Assembly (NCBI GenBank): GCA_964517495.1
Contig: CAZFER010000019.1
Span: forward strand, 19,835-83,834
DNA from: an uncultured bacterium
GTDB lineage: Bacteria; Hinthialibacterota; Hinthialibacteria; Hinthialibacterales; Hinthialibacteraceae
Length of the DNA: 64,000 bases
Direction: 5' to 3'
Shown: positions 39,980 through 59,888 of the stretch, piece by piece
Position numbering within the stretch: the stretch's first letter is position 1
How the letters are laid out: each line of letters opens with the position of its first letter
The notes under the pieces: model-generated
Seen by the model: the letters and a program-made list of their open reading frames with translations, nothing else
The model's database searches: none
What the model was told of the DNA's origin: nothing
Program-made: the position numbers and the translations under genes

Positions 39980-39983
39980 AAAT

Positions 39984-42900: not shown

Positions 42901-43160
42901 GGCCCCGAAACACCCCCCTCCTTCAATCGGGATTCCTCATCCAAACGCAAACTGGACATCTGTAACGTTGAACCATGACAGCTTACGCAGTTTTGCGCAA
43001 AGATCGGCTGGATATCCTGCTCAAAATCAACGGTCCGATCAACCACCGGAGGAATCTTTGAACCATCTTGAGCCGCTTGTGCACATACACTCAAGGAATT
43101 CAAAACTAAAACAACGGTAAAGATCGACCCTATCCATTTAAATAATTGCTGACTCTTCAT
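39984..43160 (-). CDS. PSCyt1/DUF1549/DUF1553 domain protein (Planctomycete cytochrome-c-domain family)
   Basis: The ORF track extends to 43319. The internal ATG at 43160 gives the signal peptide MKSQQLFKWIGSIFTVVLVLNSLSVCAQA. CVSCHG heme-binding motif. Lies 4 nt upstream of the DUF1501 gene. Confidence 0.85.
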   Translation of the reverse strand: MKSQQLFKWIGSIFTVVLVLNSLSVCAQAAQDGSKIPPVVDRTVDFEQDIQPIFAQNCVSCHGSTLQMSSLRLDEESRLKEGGVSGPAIIPGKSADSLLIQVVSGVAENIAPMPMDGEPLSDEQIGLLRAWIDQGAKWSESEPKVKEESTNKETTEEETEDVEAPEDKETKTSGGVHWAFSPRKDPEVPEVKQASWIRNEIDAFVLAKLEEKGLKPSKPADKQTLIRRLHLDLLGLPPTPDEIEVFVNDNSEDAYENLVDRLLASPHFGERWGRHWLDLARYADSDGYEKDTPRPYAWRYRDWVINAINEDMPYDEFTIKQLAGDLLPEADDSDLLATGFHRNTLTNKEGGVDQEEFRIKAVKDRVNTTGTVWMGITVGCAECHTHKYDPITQEEYYGLFAFFNKAEEKDVKVPLAGEEKRYLAAKERFDQVHDKFEEALEAYKEVELPERQREWERKWKPSNVKWQVLKPFKLQTENGVALKLHEDGSIQAEGSKPDADVYILSVKTNLSDLTALRLEVLPVDEDSGPGRAGHGNFVLSEFSAWLRFDGFDIASQKVEFHNPTVDYAQDKYPIKDAIDGDLKTGWAISGETERPHVAVFETKPFSDLYGDVTLTIKLSQQYGKEHTLERFRLLATDAERPVKSDGVPFHIANIIETKRDKRTDKEQKELAAFYSHIDPELALYKRSVDEHAKRQPAKPDSYIMAMAKNPEPPTSHIHIRGDFLRKGKVVKPHTPEFLPPLEPEGDEVDRLDLASWILDPEHPLTARVAANRVWQHLFGRGIVESPNDFGTRSKPPSHPLLLDWLANRYIELDWSRKALIKLIVMSATYRQSSESNSKLQEIDPQNLYLARQSRFRLPAEIIRDNSLAVSGLLYDKLGGPSIRPPLPEGVADLGYANSVRWSESPAPDRYRRGLYIFFQRTVPYPMLMTFDSPDANVTCTRRERSNTPLQSLALLNDPVFFDCAQWLGKRIVENVEGGLERRIDYAFRLCLGREPSTIERARLIQLYAELTQHFEKNPEEARSISGGNVPEQADAKQTAAWIALGRTLINLDEFMTRE

Positions 43161-43396
43161 ACTGCTCCCCATAGTAACATTATAAAATTTATCTATTTTG
43201 TCCATATTAAAGCATAATTTTATCGTCCAGTACATGGATAATTCAATAAATTGAAATACATGTGAGTTCATAAAAAACTCTTCTTTTTCATAAATCCAGG
43301 TTACTTCAACAAATACCAAACGTACTAATAGGCGTAGGAAAACCGGTTCTCTTCACCCCACACTGCATAGAGATATGGAGAAACGAATATTCCTCC

Positions 43397-46026: not shown

Positions 46027-47502
46027 TCAACTCCCCCTCTCAATCGCCTTCCTCTCCGCCTCCGGATCATAATCCGGATTTTCCCTTTGCGGCACAGGCG
46101 CATGAACCTCTTTCCGCCAATTCTTCATAATCGCATGAAGCTCTTTAACCTGCTCCGGTTTTTCCTCAACAAGATTGTTCCGTTCACCAATATCCTCTTT
46201 CAGGTTATATAACTCCAGCCGCCCATCTTCAAAATACTCATGCAACTTCCAATCTCCCCGGCGAACAACCGTGCCCGGCCGTGTACGAAAAAGCGGATCA
46301 GGCGTATCCACATTTCCATTTTGCAAATAGATGGGAAAATGCCAAAACAAAGCCCTCTCCGGCAGGCTCCCCGTTTGAGTTATTTCCGGCATCAAACTTA
46401 AACCGTCAAGAACCTTATCTTCCGGTTTCTCAATCCCCGCAATATCCAAAAATGTCGGGAAAAAATCAATATTGGAAACCGGCGTGTCATTTCGGCTGCC
46501 CGCTTTTACCTTTCCAGGCCAACGCACAATCATCGGCTCACGAATCCCCCCTTCGTAATACGCCCCTTTCCCCGCACGTAACGGCCACTGCCGCGTAACT
46601 CGAAACACCCCACCATTATCAGACGTAAACAAAACGACTGTATTTTCCGCCAGCCCCAGTTCATCCAGCGATTTCAACAGCCGCCCGATATTGGTATCCA
46701 ACGTCTCAATCATGGCCGCGTAAACAGCATTCGAATGCGCCTTGTTTCCCTCACCTTTTTTATAGTCTTCTATGATATCCTTCTTGGCCTGCAAGGGAGT
46801 ATGAACAGCATAATAAGCCATATGCAAAAAGAAGGGCCGATCCTTATTGGCCTCCATAAAACCAATCGCGTCACCAGTCAAACGATCCGTCAAATATTCC
46901 CCTTCAGGCCCATCCTCCAATTTGCTGTTTTTGTAAGGACTAAAATAACTTTGGGGATGCCCGTAATGGCTGCCGCCAATATTGACATCAAAACCCTGCG
47001 TTCTTGGGTCTTCCCCCAAATGCCATTTCCCTGCATGGCACGTTCTGTAGCCCGCCTGCTGCAATAGTTCAGCAATCGTGATTTTCTCATCCGGCAGCAC
47101 CGTTCTATTCTCCGTCGGGATTAACTTCCTAAACTTCGATCTTCCACGTTCAGATGAACCCACCGTATAGATACCATGCCGGGGCGAATACTGCCCCGTC
47201 ATACTACAGGCACGGCTGGGAGCACAATTCGCCGCCGATGCATACGCATTGGTAAACACCATCCCCTGCGATGCCAACCGGTCGATGTTCGGCGTGCGGT
47301 AAAACTCACTCCCCATAAATCCCGTATCCGTCCACCCCATATCATCGATATTGATATAAACAATATTGGGCTTCTCATCCGCATTCACACGATTCGCATG
47401 TATCAAATTGCTCGATATAAAAGTTCCCCCACCCACAAATGCCATCGTCTTTTTCAAAAATGAACGACGGGTATTTCGCGTGTTTTCCAAATCAAATTTC
47501 AT
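46027..47502 (-). CDS. sulfatase (formylglycine-dependent arylsulfatase family), Tat signal
   Basis: CAPSRACSMTG C-x-P-x-R formylglycine motif. Tat motif (TRRSFLKKTMAFVGGG) from the internal ATG (MKFDLEN...). The ORF track extends the start to 47535. Confidence 0.85.
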   Translation of the reverse strand: MKFDLENTRNTRRSFLKKTMAFVGGGTFISSNLIHANRVNADEKPNIVYINIDDMGWTDTGFMGSEFYRTPNIDRLASQGMVFTNAYASAANCAPSRACSMTGQYSPRHGIYTVGSSERGRSKFRKLIPTENRTVLPDEKITIAELLQQAGYRTCHAGKWHLGEDPRTQGFDVNIGGSHYGHPQSYFSPYKNSKLEDGPEGEYLTDRLTGDAIGFMEANKDRPFFLHMAYYAVHTPLQAKKDIIEDYKKGEGNKAHSNAVYAAMIETLDTNIGRLLKSLDELGLAENTVVLFTSDNGGVFRVTRQWPLRAGKGAYYEGGIREPMIVRWPGKVKAGSRNDTPVSNIDFFPTFLDIAGIEKPEDKVLDGLSLMPEITQTGSLPERALFWHFPIYLQNGNVDTPDPLFRTRPGTVVRRGDWKLHEYFEDGRLELYNLKEDIGERNNLVEEKPEQVKELHAIMKNWRKEVHAPVPQRENPDYDPEAERKAIERGS

Positions 47503-47551
47503 AATAACCTCCCAAAATTTATTCATCCCTTCCAACCTAAGTATAGGCTAA

Positions 47552-47660: not shown

Positions 47661-48062
47661 CTGATCTTTACCCAATAGTTTAATAAATCCATGCTTTTAC
47701 CCCAACCGGGTTACATAAGATAGCCAGAAATGAAAATAAATAACACCAAAGCCCTGAAAATAAAAACAATCGGTGACCATAAAATCATCCTGACCAGAAA
47801 TACGATTGGGAAAGGATTAATGTTCTCCGGTCTCTTCTCCCCTGCAACCCTTTAGTCCCAAAAGGCGTTTCGCAGCAGTTCAACGAATTCTACCATTGAT
47901 CAACCGTCAATCCACCGATAAAATCAATTTCCGCCTTGAAGATTTAACGAGCAGATTAAACCTAAGGCTGGTTATGTTGAAAAATTCCTTATAAAAAACA
48001 AATGATTTACTTTTACATCATACTGATTATATAATATAATCATTCACGGAGAACTTTCACCA

Positions 48063-48890
48063 ATGAATCAACCAGCAATTATATTTTGCAACTGTGAGTA
48101 TGAAGGATCGCTTCCTGACACTGTCAAACAACCCGTTTTGGATGCATTAACGAAATCATCTATCGATTTTAATTTCGTTTGTGATCTTTGTGGTTTAGCG
48201 GCCCAAAAAGATCAATGGTTCAGCGGGCTTGAACACGATCAAAACTATACGATCATCGCTTGCGCTCCACGCGCGCTTAAATGGTTATTTCACCTGGCCG
48301 GATCAAAAATCCCTGTCAACACGGCTGTCTTAAACATGCATGAGATGAATTCAGATGCTATCCTCCAATCCTTAAACATAGAAAAACCATGCTGCTCAAA
48401 CACACAAAATCATACAGACTGTCAACCCCATGCTGATGATAACTGGATTCCCTGGTTCCCGATCATTGATTACGATCGTTGCACAAACTGTAAACAGTGC
48501 TTGAATTTCTGCCTGTTTAATGTCTATGAACTGGATGATACGAATAAAGTCAGTGTAAGTCATCCAGCCAGTTGTAAAACCAACTGCCCCGCTTGCGCTA
48601 GAGTTTGCCCTGAACAAGCCATCATCTTTCCAAAACACCAATCACCCCATATCAATGGAAGCCTTATCCAACAAGAAGAATCAAAACAAAACGCCAACCT
48701 GAACAATCTTCTTCAGGGTGATTTGCAAGATATTTTGCGAAAACGCAACGCCGGCGCTAAAGGCAATTTCCCTACAATTCAAGATATTACCCTTGCTCAA
48801 GAGGAACGAAAAAAATGCGGTTGCGAATCAGATCCACCTCTTCAAATTGGCCTTATGTCTAACATCAATAAACAAAAGAATCTCAAGTGA
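48063..48890 (+). CDS. 4Fe-4S dicluster (ferredoxin-like) domain protein with an N-terminal Cys-rich domain
   Basis: 275 aa. Cys motifs CTNCKQCLNFC and CKTNCPACARVCP, plus N-terminal CNC...CDLC cysteines. Confidence 0.65.
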   Translation: MNQPAIIFCNCEYEGSLPDTVKQPVLDALTKSSIDFNFVCDLCGLAAQKDQWFSGLEHDQNYTIIACAPRALKWLFHLAGSKIPVNTAVLNMHEMNSDAILQSLNIEKPCCSNTQNHTDCQPHADDNWIPWFPIIDYDRCTNCKQCLNFCLFNVYELDDTNKVSVSHPASCKTNCPACARVCPEQAIIFPKHQSPHINGSLIQQEESKQNANLNNLLQGDLQDILRKRNAGAKGNFPTIQDITLAQEERKKCGCESDPPLQIGLMSNINKQKNLK

Positions 48891-48914: not shown

Positions 48915-50435
48915 GTGACTAATTCTTCGTTGAAACCTTCTGTTATACTTGTGGCCGACCGCACACTTTCCAGCAATTACCAAATCCTTTTTGAGGGTAT
49001 TTTTGCCACCATGCAAACCACAAAAGTGCCCGAACTGGCCATGAAACTCCTGGTTTCACCCAAAATGCCCGTAGACCGACAAGGGCGCGCAAAAGCTGTA
49101 CCCCTGGGCCTGCGGCGTTTGGAAGCGGCTCTCATCGAACAAGGCGTTGTGAATGAAAACGATATCGTTTGCACGACTCCCGATGCCTTGGACTCAATTC
49201 TTGGTCCATGGGTAAAAATTGTCGGTGTCAGCTCCAGCGATCCTCTCGGACGGGGAATGAGTAACACCACCACCGTGAAATTTTGGAGTGGAGAACTATA
49301 CACAAAAGTCTGGACCGCCAGAATGATGACCAAACTCAAAAAGGCCAAGGATAAATATCATTTCAAAATGATCGGAGGTGGAGCTGGTGCATGGCAATGG
49401 CAAAACGATCCACAGGAATGCCAAAACCATGGTATCGACTATCTCTTTCTAGGCTACAGTGAATCAAAAGGCGTTCTTTTAATCCGTGATCTGCTCAATG
49501 ACAACGATGCGGCTTTCACAACCGTGGAAAAAGGCAACGCGGCCAGTCACATTCCTAAAATCCGCAACGCTTCTCTCCTTGGTATTATTGAACTTTCTCG
49601 GGGCTGCGGAAAAGGATGCCGCTTCTGCACACTAGCAAAACACCCCATGGTGCATCTCCCCCAAGACACTATCCTATCCGATATTGAAACCAATGTCGCT
49701 CGAGGATTAACCTCCGTTGTAAGCGGTAGCGAAGATTTTTTCCGCTATGGCGCAAACGGCTCCAAAATCAACTTCGATTCACTCCATAAATTATTGACTG
49801 AAATGAAAAATATTAACGGTCTCTCTTTCATGCAGATCGACCACGCCAACATCTCTTCTGTCTTGCAAATGAGTGATCACCAACTCAAAGAAATTCGCAC
49901 CCTTCTCCAATGGAAGAAAAATAGCAATTACCTTTGGATTAACATGGGTGTCGAAAGCGCCAATGGAAATTTAGTCGCTGCCAACAGTGCGGGCAAAATC
50001 CATCCCTTCGATCCATCAAACTGGGAGGATATGGTCAAAGACGCCGTCGCCCGCTTAAGCAGAACAGGTTACTTTCCTGTGCTTAGTATTATCCTTGGTC
50101 TCCCCGGCGAAACAGAAAATGATGTGGACAGAACCATTCAACTTGTTAAAGATATTTCACGCCAATCCGCAGTCGTTTTCCCCATTTTCTATGAACCCGT
50201 GCTCCCCAATGAACCACGCTTCACGCTGGAATGCATGTCTGCCAAACACTTGGAACTTTACACCATGTGTTATGAAATCAATTTCTCACACGTTCCAAAA
50301 ATGTATTGGGACAACCAACGTGCGGGAGGTGTTCCATGGCTCCAACGCGCCTTAGTTCGGCTTTTGGGAAAAACAGAAGTCCGCGCTTGGCGAAAAAAGT
50401 TTAAACAACTGGAATCAACCCTCGCTGTCCAATAA
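48915..50435 (+). CDS. B12-binding domain radical SAM protein (class B rSAM, HpnP/HpnR/HpnJ-like)
   Basis: 506 aa with a GTG start. N-terminal cobalamin-binding-like region (SVILVADRT...KIVGVSSSDPLG). Radical SAM CxxxCxxC motif (IELSRGCGKGCRFCTLAK). Confidence 0.8.
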   Translation: MTNSSLKPSVILVADRTLSSNYQILFEGIFATMQTTKVPELAMKLLVSPKMPVDRQGRAKAVPLGLRRLEAALIEQGVVNENDIVCTTPDALDSILGPWVKIVGVSSSDPLGRGMSNTTTVKFWSGELYTKVWTARMMTKLKKAKDKYHFKMIGGGAGAWQWQNDPQECQNHGIDYLFLGYSESKGVLLIRDLLNDNDAAFTTVEKGNAASHIPKIRNASLLGIIELSRGCGKGCRFCTLAKHPMVHLPQDTILSDIETNVARGLTSVVSGSEDFFRYGANGSKINFDSLHKLLTEMKNINGLSFMQIDHANISSVLQMSDHQLKEIRTLLQWKKNSNYLWINMGVESANGNLVAANSAGKIHPFDPSNWEDMVKDAVARLSRTGYFPVLSIILGLPGETENDVDRTIQLVKDISRQSAVVFPIFYEPVLPNEPRFTLECMSAKHLELYTMCYEINFSHVPKMYWDNQRAGGVPWLQRALVRLLGKTEVRAWRKKFKQLESTLAVQ

Positions 50436-50490: not shown

Positions 50491-52176
50491 ATGCAAGAAA
50501 AGTACGAAAATAAATTGGACGCAACCATCACAAATCATTTTCTGCCCATTCAAGAAAATATTTGTCAATCCAAACCGGAGAGAGATAAACTCCGTTCCGT
50601 CATCCAGGAATACGTCAACCACGATAACCTGATCGCTCCTCTTTCCTTATATGAACTATCCTATCATGCCCGTGAAGTGTTAAACATTGCCCATTTAAAC
50701 ACCAAATTCCAAGACTATGCCTCCGTCTTGCTCCATAATGAACTCTGGAGCCAACGAGTCAGCCAAATCCCTTATGACCGTCGACTCTTGCTCCTCCCTC
50801 GTTGCTTGCGGCATAAAGAACACTGTCTTGCACAAGAAGACACATGGGGGCTCATTTGCGCTCATTGTGGAAACTGCCCAATCCACGACCTGCAAACTGA
50901 AGCCCAACAACTGGGTTACATGGTGATGATCGCCGAAGGTTCACCAATCGTTATGGCACTCATCGAGTCGGGGAAAATAGAAACGGTTATTGGCGTTAGC
51001 TGTCTTTCTGTTTTGGAAAAAGTCTTTCCCTACATGGAAGCCGCCGCCGTCCCTGGAATCGCCATTCCTCTACTCCGCGATGGTTGTACGGATACATATG
51101 CTGACATGGATTGGATTTGGGAAGCCATCTACCTCAATAACGATAATCCCATCCCCCGCTTGGATCTAAACGCACTAAAATTGGAAGTACAAGATTGTTT
51201 TGATCCCAATGCGTTAGCACCATACATGGGTTCACCTCATAACCATACCGAAAAAATTGCCCTCCAATGGCTGGCAAAATCCGGTAAACGATGGCGTCCT
51301 TTCCTCGCGGCATGTGTCTATCAATCTCTACGCAACGATCCGTCTGCCCCATTGCCAGACTCAATACGTAAACTTTTAATAGCAATTGAATGCTTCCATA
51401 AAGCATCCCTTATCCATGATGATATCGAAGACAACGATAACCTGCGCTATGGAGAACAAACACTCCATGTTCAATACGGTGTTCCCATCGCTCTCAACAT
51501 TGGCGACATACTCGTTGGTGATGGCTATCGCTTAATTGCAGAATTGGATATCCCCAGTGAGAGAAAGGCAAAAATGCTACACATTGCCGCTATTGGCCAT
51601 CGAACTCTTTGCCAGGGCCAAGGGGCGGAATTATGCTGGCAACAAAGCCGCACACCTCTAACCGTGAATGAAATCCTCGATATTTATAAACAAAAAACCG
51701 CACCGGCCTTTGAAGTCGCTTTAAGGCTGGGAGCCATCTATTCCAATAGGGATGATCACTTGGGCGATTTGCTTCAACAATATAGCACCGCATTAGGGAT
51801 CGCCTATCAGATTAAAGATGATTTCAGTGATAGCGGCCTGGAAGAGGGACCGAATTTGAAGATTCAGAATTCAATGGACATTTCATTACTCATGGCCCTG
51901 ACCTATGAAAAAGCCAATCATGAAGACCAGCAAATATTGAAAGCATTCTGGTATTCAACTTCGGATAAAGACTATCATAACCGGATCAATCAGATCATTC
52001 TAATACATAACATAGTACAGGATATGCAGGCACTTTTCCAACAATACAAAAACCACGCATTCTCCGTTCTATCCGCTATTGATAATCCAAATTTAAAATG
52101 TGTGCTTCACCGGGTTATCGGAAAGATTTTTGGAGATTTAACAAAAATGGGTTGTTGCAATGACAATCAGAAGTGA
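50491..52176 (+). CDS. trans-isoprenyl (polyprenyl) diphosphate synthase fused to an N-terminal Cys-rich domain of unknown function
   Basis: 561 aa. The C-terminal half has both Asp-rich motifs (LIHDDIEDNDNLRYG and YQIKDDFSD). The N-terminal ~260 aa carries PRCLRHKEHC...CAHCGNC cysteines and has no prenyl-synthase similarity. Confidence 0.8.
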   Translation: MQEKYENKLDATITNHFLPIQENICQSKPERDKLRSVIQEYVNHDNLIAPLSLYELSYHAREVLNIAHLNTKFQDYASVLLHNELWSQRVSQIPYDRRLLLLPRCLRHKEHCLAQEDTWGLICAHCGNCPIHDLQTEAQQLGYMVMIAEGSPIVMALIESGKIETVIGVSCLSVLEKVFPYMEAAAVPGIAIPLLRDGCTDTYADMDWIWEAIYLNNDNPIPRLDLNALKLEVQDCFDPNALAPYMGSPHNHTEKIALQWLAKSGKRWRPFLAACVYQSLRNDPSAPLPDSIRKLLIAIECFHKASLIHDDIEDNDNLRYGEQTLHVQYGVPIALNIGDILVGDGYRLIAELDIPSERKAKMLHIAAIGHRTLCQGQGAELCWQQSRTPLTVNEILDIYKQKTAPAFEVALRLGAIYSNRDDHLGDLLQQYSTALGIAYQIKDDFSDSGLEEGPNLKIQNSMDISLLMALTYEKANHEDQQILKAFWYSTSDKDYHNRINQIILIHNIVQDMQALFQQYKNHAFSVLSAIDNPNLKCVLHRVIGKIFGDLTKMGCCNDNQK

Positions 52177-53050
52177 TATGCTCCAAACCGCCAAACTTGG
52201 CGCATCCAGTTTAAATTCAACCATCGCCAGCCAAATATTGTATTACGTAAATAGTATTTCCAATCCCGACGGTGGCTATCGAGGCCGAAGCACAACAAGC
52301 GATTTGTACTACACGGTCTTCGCCATGAAAATTCTTCTGGCTTTTAATGCGGATTTACCCATAGAAAAAATGGAAGCCTATTTAAATTCCTTCGACTCTG
52401 GCCAATCTCTCGATCTTGTTCACCTATCCTGCCTGGCTCGATGCTGGGCAAATCTGCCGGGAAAAAAACCTTCTCCCAAAACAAGTAAATCAATTATAAG
52501 ACGAGTCAATGAATGCCGGACAGGCCCCATGGGATTCGCCAACCAGCCTGATCAGCGGAAATGCTCAATCTACAGCACATTCATGGCTTTGAGTGCCTAT
52601 CAGGATTTGGAGGAAAACATGCCCGATCAAGACGCGATTATCGAATGGATGTTTACCAATCAAGCGGCTGACGAAGGTTTCGCCTTTAAAACCGGCGCCA
52701 AGGGTTTGGTTCCCATCACCGCCGGCGCAATCATCTTGCTCAACTTTTTGAATGTCTCCGTACCTGACGAAAGTATACAATGGCTGATCGATAGACACAA
52801 TCCGGAAGGTGGTTTTCACGCAGCACCACTGCTCCCTTTTCCAGACTTACTATCCACCGCCACTGCACTTCATGCGCTCAAAACAGTAAATTGTTCATTG
52901 GATGATATTCGTGAACCATGCATTAACTTTATCAACAGCGTGTGGCGTGAATACGGCTTTTGTGGGATGACCGTTGATGACACCGTCGATGGCGAATACA
53001 CCTTCTATGGTTTACTCGCTTTAGGCAACATGCTGAATGGAAGAGAATAA
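52160..53050 (+). CDS. prenyltransferase/squalene-oxidase repeat (alpha/alpha-toroid) protein
   Basis: 296 aa. Repeats of the PDGGYRGR / NPEGGFHA type. Overlaps the upstream gene by 17 nt and the downstream gene by 14 nt. Confidence 0.6.
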   Translation: MTIRSDMLQTAKLGASSLNSTIASQILYYVNSISNPDGGYRGRSTTSDLYYTVFAMKILLAFNADLPIEKMEAYLNSFDSGQSLDLVHLSCLARCWANLPGKKPSPKTSKSIIRRVNECRTGPMGFANQPDQRKCSIYSTFMALSAYQDLEENMPDQDAIIEWMFTNQAADEGFAFKTGAKGLVPITAGAIILLNFLNVSVPDESIQWLIDRHNPEGGFHAAPLLPFPDLLSTATALHALKTVNCSLDDIREPCINFINSVWREYGFCGMTVDDTVDGEYTFYGLLALGNMLNGRE

Positions 53051-54968
53051 TGGAATGAACGTTACTCGCTATGATCTTTCAACATCATTGGCCAATGCCC
53101 GAACGTGCCTGCTACAAGAACGCAACCCGCATGGTCATTGGGACGGTGAACTATCCAGTAGTGCTCTTTCAACTGCAACCGCCGTTGTTGCTCTCTCACT
53201 GACGGATCCACAAAAATATCAACAACACATCCATCAAGGTCTTCAATGGTTGAACCAATATCAAAACAAGGACGGTGGGTGGGGAGATAGTATCCTGAGC
53301 CCAAGCAATATAAGCACAACCACGCTTGCCTGGGCGGCATATGCGGTCGCGGAAGATGAATCGATTTACACCAATACAATAAAAAAAGCCGAGCAATGGA
53401 TCAAAAAAAGATCAGGTCAACTGGATATCGAAACACTCGCTGACGCGATTACGGCCTGCTATGGCGAAGACCGTACTTTCTCCGTCCCCATCTTAACTCA
53501 CTGCGTTCTGAGCGGGAAATTCGGTTCTGACCCTAAAACATGGTCTTTCATTAAACCGCTCCCCTTCGAACTCGCTCTCGCGCCCTTCTGCTGCTTGAAA
53601 TGGTTGCGCATCACTGTAGTCAGCTATGCACTTCCCGCCCTTATCGCTATTGGCCAGGTAAGACATCATTACGCACCACCCAAAAATCCCTTCGTGCGCT
53701 TCATTCGCAATATCGCCCGTCCCGGAACGTTAAACCTCCTGCGCACCATTCAACCCGACAGCGGAGGTTTCCTTGAAGCCACTCCCCTGACCAGCTTCGT
53801 GACGATGTCACTGGTTTCATCCGGTCACAAAGATCATCTCGTTGTCAAAAAAGCCACCGAATTTTTAACACGTTCACAAAGAAACGATGGAAGTTGGCCT
53901 ATTGATTCAAATTTAACAACGTGGGGAACAACCCTAAGCGTAAATGCACTCGCTATGAACAAAGAATTCAAACATCTCCTTTCAGAAAAGGAACGTGCCT
54001 CTATCACATCCTGGCTATTGAATCAACAAAACCGTGGAATCCATCCCTACACCCGCGCAGGTGCTGGTGGATGGGCCTGGACGGATTTGCCTGGCGGTGT
54101 CCCCGACGCGGACGATACCGCGGGAGCGCTTATTGCGTTGTATAATCTGGGCATTGAAAAAGAAGCCATAAAAGAAGCCGTTCAACCAGGCATTCAGTGG
54201 TTCTTGCAGTTGCAAAATAACGATGGTGGAATCCCCACGTTCTGCCGGGGCTGGGGGAAACTCCCTTTCGACCGTAGTGCCCCGGATCTAACCGCTCATT
54301 TCATTTCAGCATTGTCCATCTGGTCTCAAACAAACCAGTTGCCAGAACCGCTCAATCTACAAATCAAAAAATCGATCAGGAAAAGCCTGCATTTTCTAAA
54401 AACCTCGCAACAAGACAATGGGTCCTGGATTCCTCTGTGGTTTGGTAATCCCCATGCCCCCAACGAAGAAAACCCTGTTTATGGTACATCTTTGGTTACT
54501 ACATCGCTCGTTAATCTAACCAATATTCCAGACGTCACCCTGATTGACATGGTATCAAACGGTCACAAATACATCCTGGAAACGCAAAACACCGATCAAG
54601 GCTGGGGAGGTTCTTGCAATACCCCCTCGAGCATTGAAGAAACCGCCTTGGCCATTTGTGCTCTATCTCAAGTCCTGGCATGGTCCAAAACGCATGAAAT
54701 GATTTCAAAAAGATTCAATGAACAACAGATCATAAATTCAATTAAACAAGGCACTGCGTGGCTTCTTGAAAAAACACACCTCGGTACAGAATTTCCAGCT
54801 TCACCAATAGGCCTCTATTTTGCCCGCTTATGGTATTTCGAAAAATTATACCCCATCATCTTTACAACCAGAGCGCTTGAACTAGTGAATCGTATGATTC
54901 CTCTTCTTTTTGAACATAGCCTTTTCCAACATCAAGATAAACAAAATGTCAAAGGAACCACACGGTAA
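53037..54968 (+). CDS. squalene-hopene cyclase-type class II terpene cyclase
   Basis: 643 aa. Multiple QW motifs (QNKDGGWGDS, RNDGSWPID, QNNDGGIPT, QQDNGSWIPLWFGN, QNTDQGWGGS). Catalytic DxDDTA motif (GVPDADDTAGAL). Confidence 0.8.
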   Translation: MEENNGMNVTRYDLSTSLANARTCLLQERNPHGHWDGELSSSALSTATAVVALSLTDPQKYQQHIHQGLQWLNQYQNKDGGWGDSILSPSNISTTTLAWAAYAVAEDESIYTNTIKKAEQWIKKRSGQLDIETLADAITACYGEDRTFSVPILTHCVLSGKFGSDPKTWSFIKPLPFELALAPFCCLKWLRITVVSYALPALIAIGQVRHHYAPPKNPFVRFIRNIARPGTLNLLRTIQPDSGGFLEATPLTSFVTMSLVSSGHKDHLVVKKATEFLTRSQRNDGSWPIDSNLTTWGTTLSVNALAMNKEFKHLLSEKERASITSWLLNQQNRGIHPYTRAGAGGWAWTDLPGGVPDADDTAGALIALYNLGIEKEAIKEAVQPGIQWFLQLQNNDGGIPTFCRGWGKLPFDRSAPDLTAHFISALSIWSQTNQLPEPLNLQIKKSIRKSLHFLKTSQQDNGSWIPLWFGNPHAPNEENPVYGTSLVTTSLVNLTNIPDVTLIDMVSNGHKYILETQNTDQGWGGSCNTPSSIEETALAICALSQVLAWSKTHEMISKRFNEQQIINSIKQGTAWLLEKTHLGTEFPASPIGLYFARLWYFEKLYPIIFTTRALELVNRMIPLLFEHSLFQHQDKQNVKGTTR

Positions 54969-55320: not shown

Positions 55321-57711
55321 TCAGGAATTCAAAATCATATCCGCGCGTTGTTTGTACATTAGTCCATAAAACATCTGCAAATAACGCTGGGTTTCTTTCC
55401 GTTGAAGGTTGGTGGCGTGTTTCCAGAAGCCATAGATTCGCGAGAGCGACATGAGCCGTTCGGCGTAGAGTTTCCAGTTATAACGGCTCTTGATTCGCTG
55501 AATGGCACCATTGGAGATGGTATCCCATTCCGACATATCACGTTGGCAACGCTCGATAAAATCGGCCATCTTGTTTGCCGATTCCAACCCGTGGTTTGGA
55601 TCGATGTGATACCCTGAATACCCCTCAAGGATAATCTCCTGTGGACCGCCATAACTGGTGGCAAAGGTCGGCAGGCCGGAACTCATGGCTTCGATCACCG
55701 TCAGCCCAAACGCCTCAAACAAAGCCGGTTGAACAAAGGCTCCCTTTAAATCGGCAATATAACGATATAACTCACCTACAAAGTTCTTTTGCAATTGCGC
55801 GCCAATCCAACGGATTTTATCATCCAAGTGGTAATGAGTCATCAAGTCATGCATGCGGTGAATCTGTTCCTGTTCCTCATAATCCGACGAGCGGTTCGCA
55901 TCAGTGTACCCCCCCACAATCACCAAATTCGCCAGCTCTTGCAAGCGCTCGCATTGGCCATACCATTCCACCAGACCGGTTAAATTCTTGATGCGGTCCA
56001 TTCGAGATAAGCTAAAGAGGATGGTTTTTTCACCTTTTTGAATCAATCCACGACAATCAGGATAATCTTCCGAAAAAAGCATGCGATGAATCTCTTCATG
56101 TAAATTACTCAAGCGGTGGTCATTTTCCCAATAGGGAAAAAACACATCAGGATCAGCGCCCGGTGAGACGATATTGAATTTTGGATCAAACACATTGATC
56201 CCGTTTTTTACCCGATACAATCCCGGCATGGTAAAGGTGGAATAACTTTCGTACTGCCCCACCACATCCGAGTTGCCAACAATCTCTTGATACGTACTGG
56301 TTATAATAAAATCTGCGGTATTCATCGAAATAAGATCCGCGGTAAATTGGCAGGAAAAGTGATACTGATCTTCCAGATTCATCCAATAAAGATCAGAGTA
56401 CAGATACTTGGTCTTTTCCAACGCATGGGCGATATTACATTGTGATACATTCAACCGTTCAGCAAGCAAAGTTGCCACTAAATTCCCGTCAGAATAATTT
56501 CCAATAATCAAGTCTGGCCGTGTTCCCAATTGCGCGAGTATTTCACGTTCCGCGTCAATTGAAAATTGCTCCAAATAGGGCCATATACGAAAACGTGATA
56601 TCCACTGGGGAATGATATCGCCGTTTTCATTCCGAAAAGGAATTCGGACAATCGTAGCATTTTGGGTTCCGGATATGGGTTCCAGTGGTTCATCACACGA
56701 TGTTCCATCCGATTCCGGAATAAGCCGGGTCATCACGATAATTTTGGATTCCATGTCGATGCCTTGTTCCCACAAGCGCTCATTCATCTCATTTTCAAGC
56801 GCTTTGACCTGATCCAATATATAAATCACCTGCCCCCCGGTATCTGGCTTGCCCAGTACATTGGTTTGCCCAAAATAACCATGAGGCGATAGTATCACCA
56901 CGTTAAAGATCATGGGAATTCGACTCAGAAATTCGCTTAAACGATTATGGTCCGGGGCTTCCCAAATGTCAGACAATAAATAAAGCGTGTCAAGCATTCG
57001 TCTTACAGTTCGTCCCCACCCCAATTCAAATCCCATCTCCTGCATGGTATGGGCGACCATATCCCACTCGGTATCTCCAGAAAATTGGGATAAATAGTCT
57101 TGTGCCCGGGTCAAGGCCTGCTGCAACTGAGAAATATTTTGGATACGATCGTTCAGCATCAGGGGTTGCCCCTGACATTCATGAACCCGTAAAAAATTGA
57201 ACAACAACTTCCCATCCTTCGCAGGATCGCTGAATAAGTTATTGCTCAAATGGCGGTTTAAAAATTCCACCCCGCGCCCAATGGATCGCGCTTCCTTTAA
57301 TTTGGGAAACTCCCGGTTGAATGGTTGGAGGTCTATTTCAAGGACCCAATCATCCGCACCAGCCTGAGGATTGACCAATCGCTCCTTGATATGCAGAAAT
57401 TCTGAAGCACTCATTTCATCGCAATGCATACTTTCCATATGAAAACGAATATAAATCCACACCCCAATCCGGGGACGATAGGCAAAACTGATCCACGGCG
57501 ATTGTATAACCGCTTCCTGTGAATGATGCATCAAATGGCCAAACGCAGTTGATTTAATCATGCGGTTTGAATCGTCTTCACAAAATTGCTTAAATTCGTC
57601 ATAAATATCTGACCGAAGAAGAAAGGGCCGTTCCAACCCAGTCAACTGTCGCAGAAAAACATAGATTACATTGCGATGTTCATTGATAGCGTTCTGTATT
57701 TCCTGAATCAT
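55321..57711 (-). CDS. sucrose synthase (GT4)
   Basis: 796 aa. Sucrose synthase N-domain blocks (WVLEIDLQPFNREFP, SIGRGVEFLNRHLS). C-terminal GT-B glycosyltransferase. Confidence 0.85.
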   Translation of the reverse strand: MIQEIQNAINEHRNVIYVFLRQLTGLERPFLLRSDIYDEFKQFCEDDSNRMIKSTAFGHLMHHSQEAVIQSPWISFAYRPRIGVWIYIRFHMESMHCDEMSASEFLHIKERLVNPQAGADDWVLEIDLQPFNREFPKLKEARSIGRGVEFLNRHLSNNLFSDPAKDGKLLFNFLRVHECQGQPLMLNDRIQNISQLQQALTRAQDYLSQFSGDTEWDMVAHTMQEMGFELGWGRTVRRMLDTLYLLSDIWEAPDHNRLSEFLSRIPMIFNVVILSPHGYFGQTNVLGKPDTGGQVIYILDQVKALENEMNERLWEQGIDMESKIIVMTRLIPESDGTSCDEPLEPISGTQNATIVRIPFRNENGDIIPQWISRFRIWPYLEQFSIDAEREILAQLGTRPDLIIGNYSDGNLVATLLAERLNVSQCNIAHALEKTKYLYSDLYWMNLEDQYHFSCQFTADLISMNTADFIITSTYQEIVGNSDVVGQYESYSTFTMPGLYRVKNGINVFDPKFNIVSPGADPDVFFPYWENDHRLSNLHEEIHRMLFSEDYPDCRGLIQKGEKTILFSLSRMDRIKNLTGLVEWYGQCERLQELANLVIVGGYTDANRSSDYEEQEQIHRMHDLMTHYHLDDKIRWIGAQLQKNFVGELYRYIADLKGAFVQPALFEAFGLTVIEAMSSGLPTFATSYGGPQEIILEGYSGYHIDPNHGLESANKMADFIERCQRDMSEWDTISNGAIQRIKSRYNWKLYAERLMSLSRIYGFWKHATNLQRKETQRYLQMFYGLMYKQRADMILNS

Positions 57712-59888
57712 ACATCCTCCATTTTGGGGTTCTTGACGTTGCCTAAGAAGTCAAAGTATTCGATTCCTTCCAAAATACCAGCTGCAGAGTGGGCTTCAGC
57801 GAAATAAACGGTGGGGTTCTTTTTTAAGTTTTTCAACTCCTTGCTGTAATTCCCCACCACAATGGATAACGAGTGCCCTTTCAGCATATCTTCATCGTTT
57901 CCTGATCCCCCGGCAGTCAATATCCGTTCCATGGGAATACCCCAGCGGCTGGCCAAATACCAAATAGCCAAACCTTTGGAAGCGCGCAAGGGTATAAAAT
58001 CCAGATATTGCTGCAGCGAATAAATCACTTTAACCACAAACTGATTTTCTCTCATCATGCGTATTATTTCACGCCGTTTGGGGGCTATGCTCGGATCGAT
58101 ATAATAACTGATTTTATGATCACTCTGATTTTCCGGCGGTTGTAATTCTATCCCAGGCAGAGTGGAAACAAAATCTTTGAGTTGCTCTGGTTTCCATTTA
58201 TAGTTTAAATGTTTTTCCCATCCCCGATCCAGTTTTAAGTCGTCACCATAATTGATTTCTGTACCGACAGATGTAATCAATAAATCAGGGCGTGGAACAT
58301 TGATTTCTTCAAGAATACCCGTAGCACTTTCCAGGGTGCGGCCGGTCGCGATCCCAAAGCCAACATTATCCTTGCTTTCCTCAATCCTTTTAACCAGCTC
58401 GTCCAAAGCCTCCTGGTCACCCAACAATGTGTTGTCGATGTCAGTAATTAACAACCGGTCCGCATTTAACAACCGCTTTCCTGTGGAAACCCAGAATGGT
58501 GAAACCAATTGTTCCTGCGTATGTTTTTTGATTTGTTCCAAATAGGTTTCGGTATGACTCTCCCACGAATAATGCTTCTTGACACCCGCGAGGCCACTTT
58601 GAGCAAATTGCTGCCATTTTCGCGGATCGGTAATAATCGAATGGATAGCTTCCGCAATCTCTTGGGGGTTGAGTGGATCAATGAGAATTCCATTCTGACA
58701 ATGCCTCACAATATCACGCGGCCCTCCATCGTTGGTGGCTACAATGGGAACCCCACTGGCTGCTGCTTCAATAAGGGTCAGGCCAAAAGGTTCCGTCAAG
58801 GCGGGATTAACAAACACTCCCCCTGTTTTGGCGCACATACAGTATAAATTCGGAACATCCTCGGATTGATGGGTTTTTGGATAGGCCACCCGGCCATATA
58901 AATCATACTTATCAATTAGATAAAATATATTCCTGATAACGCCTCGCGCTCCTGTGTCCAGGTGTTTTAAATCATCCCGGTTTCCTGCCACGATAACAAG
59001 ATTGGCCTTCTCCTTCAAATCCGGATGTTGCGCATAGGCCTGAATCAGTGAGGCGATGTTTTTGCGTTCATCCGCTCTGGAGATGGCGAGAACCATCGGT
59101 TTTTCCGGTTCTCTCAAGAATTTTTTCAACCGTTCAAAATAAGAGTAATATTCCAGCGGCTGCTTTGATGGACTGAATCGGGATAAATCCGTCCCTGGCG
59201 GAATGACATCCATCTTTATCGGTTGATAGCGTTGATAGACTTTATACTGCTCTTCCACTTCCTGGTTGGTGCTGGCAACCACCATGGAGGCGGATTCCAA
59301 GGCCAGTTCTTCTGCCTCTATACGTTCTGTAATGTGATATTGCTCTTCGATGCGTTTTTCAGACATCCCATGGTCAATAAGGCGTTTCCGCTTTGTCCGC
59401 CCCAATGAATGGCCGGTGAATACCAAGGGAATCCCCAATAGATGAGAAAGTTTGGAACCCACATACCCGGCATCCGCATAATGGGCATGAATGATGTCGG
59501 GCATACGCTTGATTTTACGAAAATACTTTAATATCTCATTGGCGAATTCATCCAAATACGGCCAAAGCACTTCTTTACGCAAATAGCGTTTGGGGCCACA
59601 GGGTTTTCGAATAATTTGAGCACCCGATCCTAAATCTTCCACCTCTTCTTCATAATCAGAATCGACTTTTTTATCGAAGATTTGCCGAGTGATCAAGTCA
59701 ACTTTATCCACGTCTTCTTGTTGAGATAGCGTTTTTGCCAACTCAACAACATACAACACTTGCCCGCCGGTATCTGCATCACGGCCTAATTCAATTTTTT
59801 TACCCCGAACCAACCCATGTACACTGATCATCGCAATATACAACGTGTCATTTGACAGAGTTGCATAATTGTTCATATTCGTTTTCAT
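57708..59888 (-). CDS. sucrose-phosphate synthase with a C-terminal sucrose-phosphatase-like HAD domain
   Basis: 726 aa. GT4 SPS blocks (ISVHGLVRGKKIELGRDADTGGQVLYVVELA). C-terminal LLITDIDNTLLGD HAD motif. 4 nt ATGA overlap with the sucrose synthase gene. Confidence 0.85.
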   Translation of the reverse strand: MKTNMNNYATLSNDTLYIAMISVHGLVRGKKIELGRDADTGGQVLYVVELAKTLSQQEDVDKVDLITRQIFDKKVDSDYEEEVEDLGSGAQIIRKPCGPKRYLRKEVLWPYLDEFANEILKYFRKIKRMPDIIHAHYADAGYVGSKLSHLLGIPLVFTGHSLGRTKRKRLIDHGMSEKRIEEQYHITERIEAEELALESASMVVASTNQEVEEQYKVYQRYQPIKMDVIPPGTDLSRFSPSKQPLEYYSYFERLKKFLREPEKPMVLAISRADERKNIASLIQAYAQHPDLKEKANLVIVAGNRDDLKHLDTGARGVIRNIFYLIDKYDLYGRVAYPKTHQSEDVPNLYCMCAKTGGVFVNPALTEPFGLTLIEAAASGVPIVATNDGGPRDIVRHCQNGILIDPLNPQEIAEAIHSIITDPRKWQQFAQSGLAGVKKHYSWESHTETYLEQIKKHTQEQLVSPFWVSTGKRLLNADRLLITDIDNTLLGDQEALDELVKRIEESKDNVGFGIATGRTLESATGILEEINVPRPDLLITSVGTEINYGDDLKLDRGWEKHLNYKWKPEQLKDFVSTLPGIELQPPENQSDHKISYYIDPSIAPKRREIIRMMRENQFVVKVIYSLQQYLDFIPLRASKGLAIWYLASRWGIPMERILTAGGSGNDEDMLKGHSLSIVVGNYSKELKNLKKNPTVYFAEAHSAAGILEGIEYFDFLGNVKNPKMEDV

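What the first reader, a model, noticed from the sequence alone, without database searches (positions are those of the whole stretch)
50491..52176. Polyprenyl diphosphate synthase with a ~260 aa Cys-rich N-terminal extension
Standard trans-prenyl synthases are 300-350 aa. Here the recognisable synthase fold (DDIED...KDDFSD) occupies only the C-terminal half. The N-terminal half has a CxxxxxxxC...CxxCxxC pattern (PRCLRHKEHC...CAHCGNC) and no prenyl-synthase similarity. A fusion like this suggests a regulatory, metal-binding or second catalytic module coupled to chain elongation.
Basis: seen in the sequence. Interest (0 to 1): 0.6.

Follow-up and report, generated by a model that had tools for sequence, protein, structure and literature searches.

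The report
Iron-sulfur-type domain fused to prenyl synthase
This is a real single gene that joins a cysteine-rich domain of unknown function (DUF116, probably metal-binding) to an intact prenyl-chain-building enzyme; the fusion is already catalogued and widespread, but nobody knows what it does, and it sits in a conserved gene cluster with a terpene-cyclase-like gene whose substrate is an open question.

Summary
ORF 50491..52176 (+) encodes 561 aa with one stop. Residues 63-213 are Pfam DUF116 (E=1e-32) and residues 254-487 are a trans-polyprenyl diphosphate synthase (E=3e-40).

It is not a gene-call merge. All 120 listed homologues and 84 of 84 divergent cluster representatives carry both domains, and 594 matching loci turned up in a collection holding one genome per species, mostly Planctomycetota, Verrucomicrobiota, Lentisphaerota and Acidobacteriota. 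AlphaFold gives one rigid two-domain model (pLDDT 92.8, pTM 0.90).

Seven cysteines in the DUF116 half are invariant in 125 fusions (33-75% identity). All synthase catalytic motifs are kept. Ala replaces the chain-limiting aromatic residue, so a product longer than C20 is likely.

The gene lies in a conserved operon: ferredoxin-like protein, radical SAM enzyme, the fusion, a small alpha/alpha-toroid protein and an SHC-like cyclase with DxDDT.

Makarova et al. (2015) already noted the fusion, so this is a new member of a known but uncharacterised family. The likeliest role is an Fe-S redox module tied to synthesis of a cyclised non-squalene polyprenoid; this is inferred, not shown.

The parts
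48012..48040 (+). Promoter-like site (TTTACA-17-TATAAT, 11/12) in the 527-nt gap before the first operon gene
   Evidence: It is the best consensus match in the region, but the number of such sites is not above shuffles, so the evidence is weak.
48063..48890 (+). Ferredoxin-like protein (275 aa): a Cys-containing N-terminal domain (aa 1-130) that is a separate 'unk140' gene in other genomes, followed by a 2x[4Fe-4S] dicluster domain (aa 131-190)
   Evidence: Pfam Fer4_7/Fer4_10. The N-terminal domain matches the separate 140-aa gene of L040. A homologue lies upstream of the fusion in 47 of 59 loci with enough flank.
48915..50435 (+). Radical SAM enzyme (506 aa) with CxxxCxxC at aa 231-238; distantly related to MiaB/RimO and to B12-binding radical SAM proteins
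   Evidence: PF04055 E=1.6e-11. NCBIfam TIGR04013 and TIGR00089 hit below cut-off. The motif is shown. This type occurs in 10 of 59 loci and a different 396-aa SPASM-like radical SAM in 33 of 59.
50491..52176 (+). DUF116-polyprenyl diphosphate synthase fusion (561 aa): the finding
50677..51129 (+). DUF116 domain (aa 63-213): a four-stranded parallel alpha/beta core preceded by three helices (aa 28-91)
50803..50877 (+). Cys-rich loop C105-x6-C112-x10-C123-x2-C126-x2-C129; the other two invariant Cys are C171 (51001-51003) and C199 (51085-51087)
   Evidence: All seven Cys are invariant in 125 of 125 fusions.
51130..51249 (+). Inter-domain linker (aa 214-253), predicted as ordered helices, not a floppy tether
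   Evidence: pLDDT blocks of 89-97 across residues 201-250 and pTM 0.90 for the whole chain
51250..52128 (+). Complete trans-isoprenyl diphosphate synthase fold (aa 254-546)
51388..51432 (+). Chain-length region plus first Asp-rich motif: ECFHKASLIHDDIED (F302 at -8, A305 at -5, S306 at -4, DDIED 310-314)
   Evidence: 1wy0 has AIELIHNYSLVHDDIMD, with Tyr at -5.
51817..51831 (+). Second Asp-rich motif DDFSD (aa 443-447)
   Evidence: D443 and D444 are conserved in 124 of 125, D447 in 118 of 125
52147..52173 (+). C-terminal tail MGCCNDNQK with Cys555/556; specific to one subclade and disordered in the model
   Evidence: Cys556 is invariant in the 42 close homologues but present in only 57 of 125 overall. 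pLDDT is below 50 for residues 556-561.
52160..53050 (+). Small alpha/alpha-toroid protein (296 aa); its start overlaps the fusion's stop by 17 nt; conserved C-terminal motif GF.G.W.DD..D.EYT[FY]YGLL
   Evidence: PF00432 E=2.3e-15. The overlap is shown. A homologue lies downstream in 49 of 65 loci. The motif is shown.
53037..54968 (+). SHC-like class II terpene cyclase homologue (643 aa) with VPDADDTA at aa 355-362 (54099-54122); it overlaps the toroid gene by 14 nt
   Evidence: PF13243 and PF13249 hit. It scores 91 bits against the 431-bit cut-off of the hopene cyclase model. The D[AGV]DDT motif is kept in 40 of 40 loci. A homologue lies downstream in 37 of 65 loci.

Best explanation
The gene encodes one soluble two-domain enzyme.

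Shown or directly read from sequence and model:
- The C-terminal half is a complete, catalytically competent trans-isoprenyl diphosphate synthase.
- The N-terminal half is a DUF116 alpha/beta domain with seven invariant cysteines, rigidly packed against the synthase.
- The gene is translationally coupled into a conserved operon with a dicluster ferredoxin-like protein, a radical SAM enzyme, a small alpha/alpha-toroid protein and an SHC-like cyclase that keeps its DxDDT acid.

Inferred:
- The seven Cys (including CxxCxxC) bind Fe-S, most simply one four-Cys cluster plus a three-Cys site.
- The synthase makes an all-trans prenyl diphosphate longer than C20, because Ala replaces the aromatic floor residue at -5 and Phe sits one helical turn deeper at -8.
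- The DUF116 module takes electrons from the operon's ferredoxin-like protein. It then either performs reductive chemistry on the allylic diphosphate held by the synthase or relays electrons to the radical SAM partner.
- The tailored regular (head-to-tail) polyprenoid is then cyclised by the SHC-like enzyme into a non-hopanoid, non-sterol polycyclic lipid, without any need for O2.
For: - Domain calls: PF01976 1e-32 and PF00348 3e-40.
- Fusion conservation: all 120 listed homologues have both domains, as do 84 of 84 divergent 50%-cluster representatives. There are 594 matching loci in the species-representative genome set, and all 80 that were fetched span both halves unless cut by a contig end.
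- A split form with adjacent separate genes exists in L085.
- Model: pLDDT 92.8, pTM 0.90, ordered linker.
- Catalytic residues are conserved in at least 118 of 125 sequences: GKRxRP, DDIED, R319, GQ, KT, F407, YQ, DDxxD.
- Seven Cys are invariant in 125 of 125.
- Chain-length region: A305 in 124 of 125 and F302 in 121 of 125, against Tyr at -5 in 1wy0 and 5ayp.
- Operon census: Fer4 47/59, any radical SAM 43/59, toroid 49/65, SHC-like 37/65. Gene overlaps in the window are -17 and -14 nt.
- The SHC-like D[AGV]DDT motif is kept in 40 of 40 loci.
- Literature: DUF116 was predicted to be flavodoxin-like and to act in electron transfer, and the fusion was noted (PMC5898192). Planctomycete SHC-like proteins keep catalytic residues, and their context suggests precursors other than squalene (PMC7306690). 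The SHC-like clade is sister to epoxy-polyprenyl cyclases and its substrate is unknown (PMC12324236). A Bipolaricaulota terpenoid cluster carries a stand-alone DUF116 beside IspH, SHC, HpnH and a polyprenyl synthetase.
Against: - No experiment or solved structure shows that any DUF116 binds metal. PDB sequence searches found nothing significant and fold searches gave only generic alpha/beta hits.
- Prenyl chain elongation needs no redox chemistry, so the point of the fusion is not explained by the known mechanism.
- The operon already has its own ferredoxin, which makes a pure relay role redundant.
- About a dozen Verrucomicrobiales loci have the fusion with no partner genes within 8 kb.
- Two unrelated radical SAM types fill the same operon slot, so that step is not defined.
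- The chain-length inference rests on rules from other subfamilies.
- No product is known.
Confidence: 0.45

Rival explanations
1. DUF116 is a redox, iron or oxygen sensor that switches the fused synthase on or off (a regulatory Fe-S domain), rather than taking part in the chemistry.
For: The core fold is flavodoxin/receiver-like. The interface with the synthase is predicted to be rigid. The fusion also occurs alone, without redox partners, in some Verrucomicrobiales loci.
Against: Seven invariant Cys is more than typical one-cluster sensors need. Ferredoxin-like and radical SAM genes are co-operonic in 73-80% of loci, which points to electron flow rather than sensing. Stand-alone archaeal DUF116 proteins are linked to redox enzymes.
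Confidence: 0.15
2. DUF116 is a structural metal (Zn or Fe-S) scaffold. It docks the synthase to the toroid protein, the SHC-like cyclase or the radical SAM enzyme so that the hydrophobic product is channelled, with no redox role of its own.
For: The gene order fusion-toroid-SHC-like is conserved and the genes overlap. In the 2025 preprint, the stem of the SHC-like clade shows unusual substitution density at its dimer-contact surface.
Against: CxxCxxC plus four more invariant Cys at strand ends of an alpha/beta fold looks more like cluster ligation than a zinc knuckle. No complex modelling could be run.
Confidence: 0.15
3. The enzyme is the organism's housekeeping medium- or long-chain prenyl diphosphate synthase (for example for the menaquinone side chain), and its place beside the cyclase genes is secondary.
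For: Small residues at -5 and -4, as in long-chain synthases. Solitary copies exist in some genomes. No other prenyl synthase lies in the 64-kb window.
Against: The chain-length region FHKAS is nearly invariant across phyla, whereas, from my own knowledge, their menaquinone chain lengths differ. Linkage to the toroid gene is 49/65 and to the SHC-like gene 37/65 across phyla. No quinone biosynthesis genes are in the operon.
Confidence: 0.1
4. Artefact: two adjacent genes were merged by a sequencing error or a gene-calling error.
For: One metagenome contig (L085) has DUF116 and the synthase as separate adjacent genes.
Against: The frame is continuous with a single stop, and there is no SD-like internal start. 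The same architecture appears in every homologue examined and in 594 genome loci. The linker is modelled with high confidence.
Confidence: 0.01

Closest known systems
DUF116-polyprenyl synthetase fusions such as Psta_0175 of Pirellula staleyi (Makarova et al. 2015, PMC5898192)
   Same: The architecture is identical: PF01976 then PF00348 in one protein of about 480-650 aa. The host group (PVC bacteria) and the seven-Cys pattern are the same.
   Different: Nothing structural differs. The window protein is simply another member, at most 75% identical to its nearest relative. No member has been characterised.
Stand-alone DUF116 / arCOG02078 / COG1852 proteins (e.g. MMP0162 of Methanococcus maripaludis)
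   Same: It matches the Pfam model over 150 of 155 positions, with CxxCxxC plus further conserved Cys and a predicted flavodoxin-like fold.
   Different: The archaeal proteins have two N-terminal transmembrane helices and sit next to sulfite/nitrite reductase or ArsA-like genes. The window domain is soluble (maximum 19-residue hydropathy 1.44), has three amphipathic helices instead, and is fused to a synthase.
Short-chain trans-prenyl diphosphate synthases: P. horikoshii GGPPS (1wy0) and the GGPPS of PDB 6kd7
   Different: Ala replaces the chain-terminating Tyr/Phe at -5, and Phe sits at -8. It falls far below every NCBIfam equivalog cut-off. It carries a 250-aa N-terminal Fe-S-type domain.
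Bacillus sesquarterpene pathway (HepS/HepT heptaprenyl-PP synthase, YtpB, SqhC)
   Same: The logic is the same: a prenyl synthase supplies a regular, non-squalene polyprenoid to an SHC homologue (background in PMC7306690).
   Different: No YtpB-type class I synthase is in the operon. Instead there are Fe-S and radical SAM proteins and a small toroid protein. The cyclase belongs to a different clade and the host phyla differ.
Hopanoid clusters with SHC + HpnH (radical SAM) + polyprenyl synthase, including the Bipolaricaulota J31 cluster that also has a stand-alone DUF116 (bioRxiv 10.1101/2025.11.21.689855)
   Same: The same four functional types sit together: a cyclase, a radical SAM enzyme, a prenyl synthase and DUF116.
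   Different: Here DUF116 is fused to the synthase, and the cyclase is far below the hopene-cyclase threshold. The window's radical SAM did not match HpnH at E<=0.01; for the 396-aa type only the best 25 of 44 NCBIfam hits were listed, none of them HpnH. No squalene synthase genes are in the operon.
IspH / IspG ([4Fe-4S] enzymes acting on allylic diphosphates)
   Same: The only resemblance is conceptual: a Cys-ligated cluster next to an allylic diphosphate binding site.
   Different: No sequence or fold similarity was detected. This is a lead recalled from chemistry, not a relationship.

Membership tests
trans-isoprenyl diphosphate synthase (PF00348, head-to-tail) | Pfam model above the gathering score | tested here: met
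   138.6 bits against a cut-off of 27, residues 254-487
trans-isoprenyl diphosphate synthase (PF00348, head-to-tail) | Two Asp-rich motifs (FARM DDxxD, SARM DDxxD) plus the IPP/diphosphate-binding residues (GKRxRP, Arg after FARM, GQ, KT, FQ/YQ) | tested here: met
   DDIED 310-314, R319, Q377, K402, T403, Q440 and DDFSD 443-447 are each conserved in at least 118 of 125 homologues
trans-isoprenyl diphosphate synthase (PF00348, head-to-tail) | All-alpha isoprenoid synthase fold | tested here: met
trans-isoprenyl diphosphate synthase (PF00348, head-to-tail) | Condensation of IPP with an allylic diphosphate, and a defined product chain length | not testable with these tools
   Only an inference is available, from A305/S306 at -5/-4 and F302 at -8
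Named synthase equivalogs (GGPP_syn NF041003, IdsA, FPPsyn, HepT, IspB and others) | Score above the NCBIfam curated cut-off | tested here: not met
   The best scores are 105 bits or lower against cut-offs of 275-600
DUF116 (PF01976 / COG1852 / arCOG02078) | Pfam model above the gathering score, nearly full length | tested here: met
   113 bits against a cut-off of 25, profile positions 6-155 of 155. 84 of 84 divergent fusion representatives also match.
DUF116 (PF01976 / COG1852 / arCOG02078) | At least six conserved Cys, including CxxCxxC | tested here: met
   C105, C112, C123, C126, C129, C171 and C199 are invariant in 125 of 125. The feature is as described in PMC5898192.
DUF116 (PF01976 / COG1852 / arCOG02078) | Two N-terminal transmembrane helices (typical archaeal members) | tested here: not met
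   Maximum Kyte-Doolittle 19-residue mean is 1.44, and the N-terminus is modelled as amphipathic helices
DUF116 (PF01976 / COG1852 / arCOG02078) | Flavodoxin-like alpha/beta fold | tested here: met
DUF116 (PF01976 / COG1852 / arCOG02078) | Binds Fe-S or another metal | not testable with these tools
   No solved structure or biochemical report was found
DUF116-polyprenyl synthase fusion family (Psta_0175 type) | Both domains in one polypeptide, DUF116 N-terminal, about 480-650 aa | tested here: met
Squalene-hopene cyclase (neighbouring gene 53037-54968) | Score above the TIGR01507 hopene cyclase cut-off | tested here: not met
   91.4 bits against 431.1
Class II (protonation-initiated) terpene cyclases (neighbouring gene) | DxDD(T) catalytic acid in a beta-gamma alpha/alpha-toroid protein | tested here: met
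   VPDADDTA at aa 355-362, D[AGV]DDT in 40 of 40 loci. PF13243 and PF13249 hit.
'SHC-like' clade of unknown function (Santana-Molina 2020; PMC12324236) | Placement in that clade on a cyclase tree | not tested
   No tree was built. The host range (PVC and Acidobacteriota), the length of 617-643 aa and the retained catalytic motif fit the published description.
IspH/IspG-type allylic diphosphate reductases | Sequence or fold homology to LytB/GcpE | tested here: not met

The most novel reading that the evidence does not exclude
The fusion is the committed enzyme of an oxygen-independent pathway, widespread in PVC bacteria and Acidobacteriota. In that pathway a C25-C35 regular polyprenyl diphosphate is made and then reductively or radically tailored at Fe-S centres, with DUF116 acting as an IspH-like catalytic cluster on the allylic diphosphate. 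The SHC-like enzyme then cyclises it. The products could be cyclised regular polyprenoids of the tricyclopolyprenol type. That would give the 'SHC-like' cyclase clade a substrate. It would also offer a biological source for orphan biomarkers such as the tricyclic terpanes, whose sources are described as unknown (PMC9247107; PMC12324236).
Probability: 0.1. Interest if true: 0.85.

Novelty: new member of a known kind. Interest (0 to 1): 0.45.

Why it matters
The fused architecture is already catalogued, so the finding is not a discovery in itself. Three things still make it useful.

First, DUF116 has no known function or structure. Its rigid fusion to an enzyme with well-understood chemistry is a Rosetta-stone clue to what it does.

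Second, the fusion marks a conserved operon containing an SHC-like cyclase. Recent literature explicitly calls the substrate of that clade unknown.

Third, the operon supplies a concrete, testable candidate set of genes for a non-squalene, O2-independent route to polycyclic isoprenoid lipids. These genes occur in abundant soil, sediment and aquatic bacteria.

Tried and rejected
- Gene-call merge: rejected (single stop, no SD-like internal start, universal co-occurrence of both domains).
- Membrane anchoring, as in archaeal DUF116: rejected, no hydrophobic segment.
- afdb50 fold search: the library is not installed.
- Genome scan with a DUF116-only alignment (A3) failed for lack of a conserved 7-10-column stretch; alignment A1 was used instead.
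- Pfam at E<=10 on the N-terminal 70 aa, the linker and the 'unk140' domain found nothing.
- Neighbours of the solitary Verrucomicrobiales copies are unrelated genes (queuosine, DNA repair, sigma-54 regulator and others) and uninformative.
- Supplementary Fig. S10 of Santana-Molina 2020, which shows the SHC-like genomic context, is not held.
- Literature searches for DUF116, COG1852, PF01976, Psta_0175, IPR002829 and MMP0162, and for the operon's gene combination, found no functional study.
- Stand-alone archaeal DUF116 contexts could not be sampled, because every search ranked the fusion family first.
- Model coordinates are not exposed, so Cys-Cys distances and the domain interface could not be measured.
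Full report
OBSERVATION. The ORF is exactly as reported: 50491..52176 on the + strand, ATG start, 561 codons and one terminal stop. An AAGGA motif lies 9 nt upstream of the start. The quoted motifs are all there.

DOMAIN IDENTITY. Pfam splits the protein cleanly. DUF116 (PF01976) covers residues 63-213 (E=1.1e-32, 150 of 155 profile positions). Polyprenyl synthetase (PF00348) covers residues 254-487 (E=2.7e-40). NCBIfam recognises the C-terminal half as a prenyl diphosphate synthase. Every named equivalog (GGPP, FPP, hexa-, hepta-, octaprenyl and others) scores far below its cut-off, at 105 bits or lower against 275-600.

THE FUSION IS REAL AND COMMON.
- All 120 best homologues (49-75% identity, 554-605 aa) carry both Pfam domains. 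Source names include Sedimentisphaerales, Acidobacteria and Planctomycetota.
- A search of 1.84 billion cluster representatives with the DUF116 half alone found 785 clusters (205 at E<1e-30). Of the best 150, 93 are at least 480 aa long, and nearly all of those have DDxxD motifs at fixed distances from CxxCxxC.
- All 84 such divergent representatives that were scanned match both Pfam models.
The 80 that were fetched span both halves and come mostly from Planctomycetota (including the cultured strain SH248), Verrucomicrobiota, Lentisphaerota and Vicinamibacterales.
- There is no SD-like internal start at codons 215-275 and no hydrophobic segment.
- One metagenome contig (L085) carries a split form. 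A 240-aa DUF116 ends in a stop, and 17 nt later a separate gene starts for the same synthase subfamily (...IECFHKASLAHDDIADED...). So the two modules can work as separate polypeptides but stay adjacent.
- Makarova et al. (2015) already noted that DUF116 is fused to polyprenyl synthetase in some bacteria, citing Psta_0175.

SYNTHASE HALF. GKRWRP, DDIED, R319, GQG, KT, F407, YQ and DDFSD are each conserved in at least 118 of 125 fusions. The enzyme is therefore expected to condense IPP with allylic diphosphates. In the alignment to P. horikoshii GGPPS (AIELIHNYSLVHDDIMD) and to an FPP synthase (AIEMIHTYSLIHDDL), the chain-terminating Tyr at -5 is Ala305 here (ECFHKASLIHDDIED), and a nearly invariant Phe302 lies at -8. 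By the established chain-length rules for this enzyme family (my own knowledge), this predicts a product longer than C20. The actual length is not determined.

DUF116 HALF. Seven cysteines (105, 112, 123, 126, 129, 171, 199) are invariant in all 125 fusions at 33-75% identity. C105, C171 and C199 sit just after beta-strands of the alpha/beta core and the other four lie in the loop that follows the first strand; strand ends are where cofactors bind in such folds (my own knowledge). Other near-invariant polar residues are N83, W86, R98, D117, E149, T202 and D205. Seven Cys fit one four-Cys cluster plus a three-Cys site, but this is numerology until the geometry or the metal content is measured. 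In about 46% of fusions, including this one, a disordered C-terminal tail carries a further conserved Cys (MGCCxD or KGWCxE). Its role is unexplained.

OPERON. In the window the gene sits in a same-strand block with gaps of 24 and 55 nt and overlaps of 17 and 14 nt. The block is:
- a ferredoxin-like protein (48063-48890);
- a radical SAM enzyme (48915-50435);
- the fusion;
- a 296-aa alpha/alpha-toroid protein (52160-53050);
- a 643-aa SHC-like protein (53037-54968).
Unrelated genes flank the block: a sulfatase upstream and sucrose synthase downstream, both on the other strand.

The same order recurs at 75% and at about 50% identity, including in an Acidobacteria MAG. I took a tblastn census of the fetched loci:
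- Among the 59 loci with at least 3 kb upstream, 47 have the ferredoxin-like gene and 43 have a radical SAM gene.
- Among the 65 loci with at least 3.2 kb downstream, 49 have the toroid gene and 37 have the SHC-like gene.

The radical SAM slot is filled by two unrelated types. The window's 506-aa MiaB/B12-like type is in 10 loci, and a 396-aa SPASM/NirJ-like type is in 33. Many loci also add a GcvH-like gene, a CobW GTPase and a NifS/DndA-like cysteine desulfurase. The N-terminal domain of the window's ferredoxin-like protein is a separate 140-aa gene elsewhere. The SHC-like protein scores 91 bits against the 431-bit cut-off of the hopene cyclase model but keeps D[AGV]DDT in 40 of 40 loci. About a dozen Verrucomicrobiales loci have the fusion alone, among unrelated genes.

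LITERATURE. No functional study of DUF116 or of this operon was found. Santana-Molina et al. (2020) describe planctomycete 'SHC-like' proteins that keep catalytic residues. They state that the genomic context suggests precursors other than squalene. [quoted passage not shown] It states that the function and substrate of the clade are unknown. A Bipolaricaulota terpenoid cluster has a stand-alone DUF116 next to IspH, SHC, HpnH and a polyprenyl synthetase.

INTERPRETATION. Three things are solid: a genuine, ancient, widespread bifunctional architecture; an intact synthase; and a conserved operon rich in Fe-S and radical SAM proteins that ends in a class II cyclase homologue. The rest is inferred. 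DUF116 probably binds Fe-S and brings redox chemistry to the synthase, either acting on the bound allylic diphosphate or passing electrons to the radical SAM partner. The pathway would then yield a cyclised regular polyprenoid without oxygen. I put about 0.45 on this overall reading. The rivals are a redox sensor (0.15), a structural docking domain (0.15), a housekeeping long-chain synthase (0.10) and an artefact (0.01). The resemblance to IspH/IspG is purely chemical, and membership was tested and not met.

NOVELTY AND SCORE. The fusion is in Pfam and was noted in 2015. The linkage of the SHC-like gene to non-squalene precursors was noted in 2020. This is therefore a new member of a known, uncharacterised family, not a new kind of system. 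Its value is as an entry point to two open questions: what DUF116 does, and what the SHC-like clade cyclises. Interest is 0.45. The most novel reading not excluded is an O2-independent route to tricyclopolyprenol-type lipids, a possible source of orphan tricyclic terpanes. It gets probability about 0.1.

Noticed in passing
window 48915-50435; L040 6693-7883: Two unrelated radical SAM enzymes occupy the same operon position next to the fusion in different lineages. One is the 506-aa MiaB/B12-like type and the other a 396-aa SPASM/NirJ/AhbD-like type. This is an apparent non-orthologous replacement.
   Followed up: partly
window 48063-48470; L040 5383-5805: The Cys-containing N-terminal domain (about 130 aa) of the window's ferredoxin-like protein is a separate 140-aa gene in other genomes. 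It has no Pfam or NCBIfam match even at E<=10.
   Followed up: partly
window 52147-52173: There is a C-terminal tail MGCCNDNQK after the synthase fold. A Cys at this position is invariant in the close clade (as MGCCxD or KGWCxE) but present in only 57 of 125 fusions, and the tail is disordered in the model. It could be an extra cluster ligand or a modification site.
   Followed up: partly
window 52952-53029 (toroid protein aa 265-290): The small alpha/alpha-toroid protein has a conserved motif GF.G.W.DD..D.EYT[FY]YGLL. From my own recollection, not tested here, it resembles the repeat of the protein prenyltransferase beta subunit that carries the zinc ligands, but with Glu where those enzymes have the zinc-binding Cys.
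   Followed up: partly
L040 3770-5343 and 12354-13496; also L002, L003, L050, L055-L057: A GcvH-like gene, a CobW-type GTPase and a DndA/IscS/NifS-like cysteine desulfurase join the operon in many Planctomycetota, Verrucomicrobiota and Acidobacteriota loci (GcvH 22/49, CobW 25/49, desulfurase 15/61). The window's operon lacks them.
   Followed up: partly
L085 2747-3761: A split form of the fusion. A stand-alone 240-aa DUF116 gene is followed 17 nt later by a separate synthase gene of the same subfamily, with CobW and a radical-SAM-like gene upstream. It is a single metagenome contig, so a sequencing error cannot be excluded.
   Followed up: partly
L006, L014, L029, L046, L047, L051, L052, L054, L058, L060, L081: Verrucomicrobiales-type loci carry the fusion gene alone, with none of the operon partners within 8 kb. 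The neighbours are unrelated (queuosine genes, DNA repair, a sigma-54 regulator).
   Followed up: partly
window 55321-59888 (- strand): A sucrose synthase (796 aa) overlaps by 4 nt a fused sucrose-phosphate synthase/phosphatase (726 aa). This is a complete sucrose module in what looks like a planctomycete genome.
   Followed up: no
window 38495-43319 (- strand): A planctomycete signature pair is present: a PSCyt1/PSCyt2/PSD1 protein (1111 aa) followed by DUF1501 (494 aa). Together with the sulfatase at 46027-47535, it supports a Planctomycetota origin for the window.
   Followed up: no
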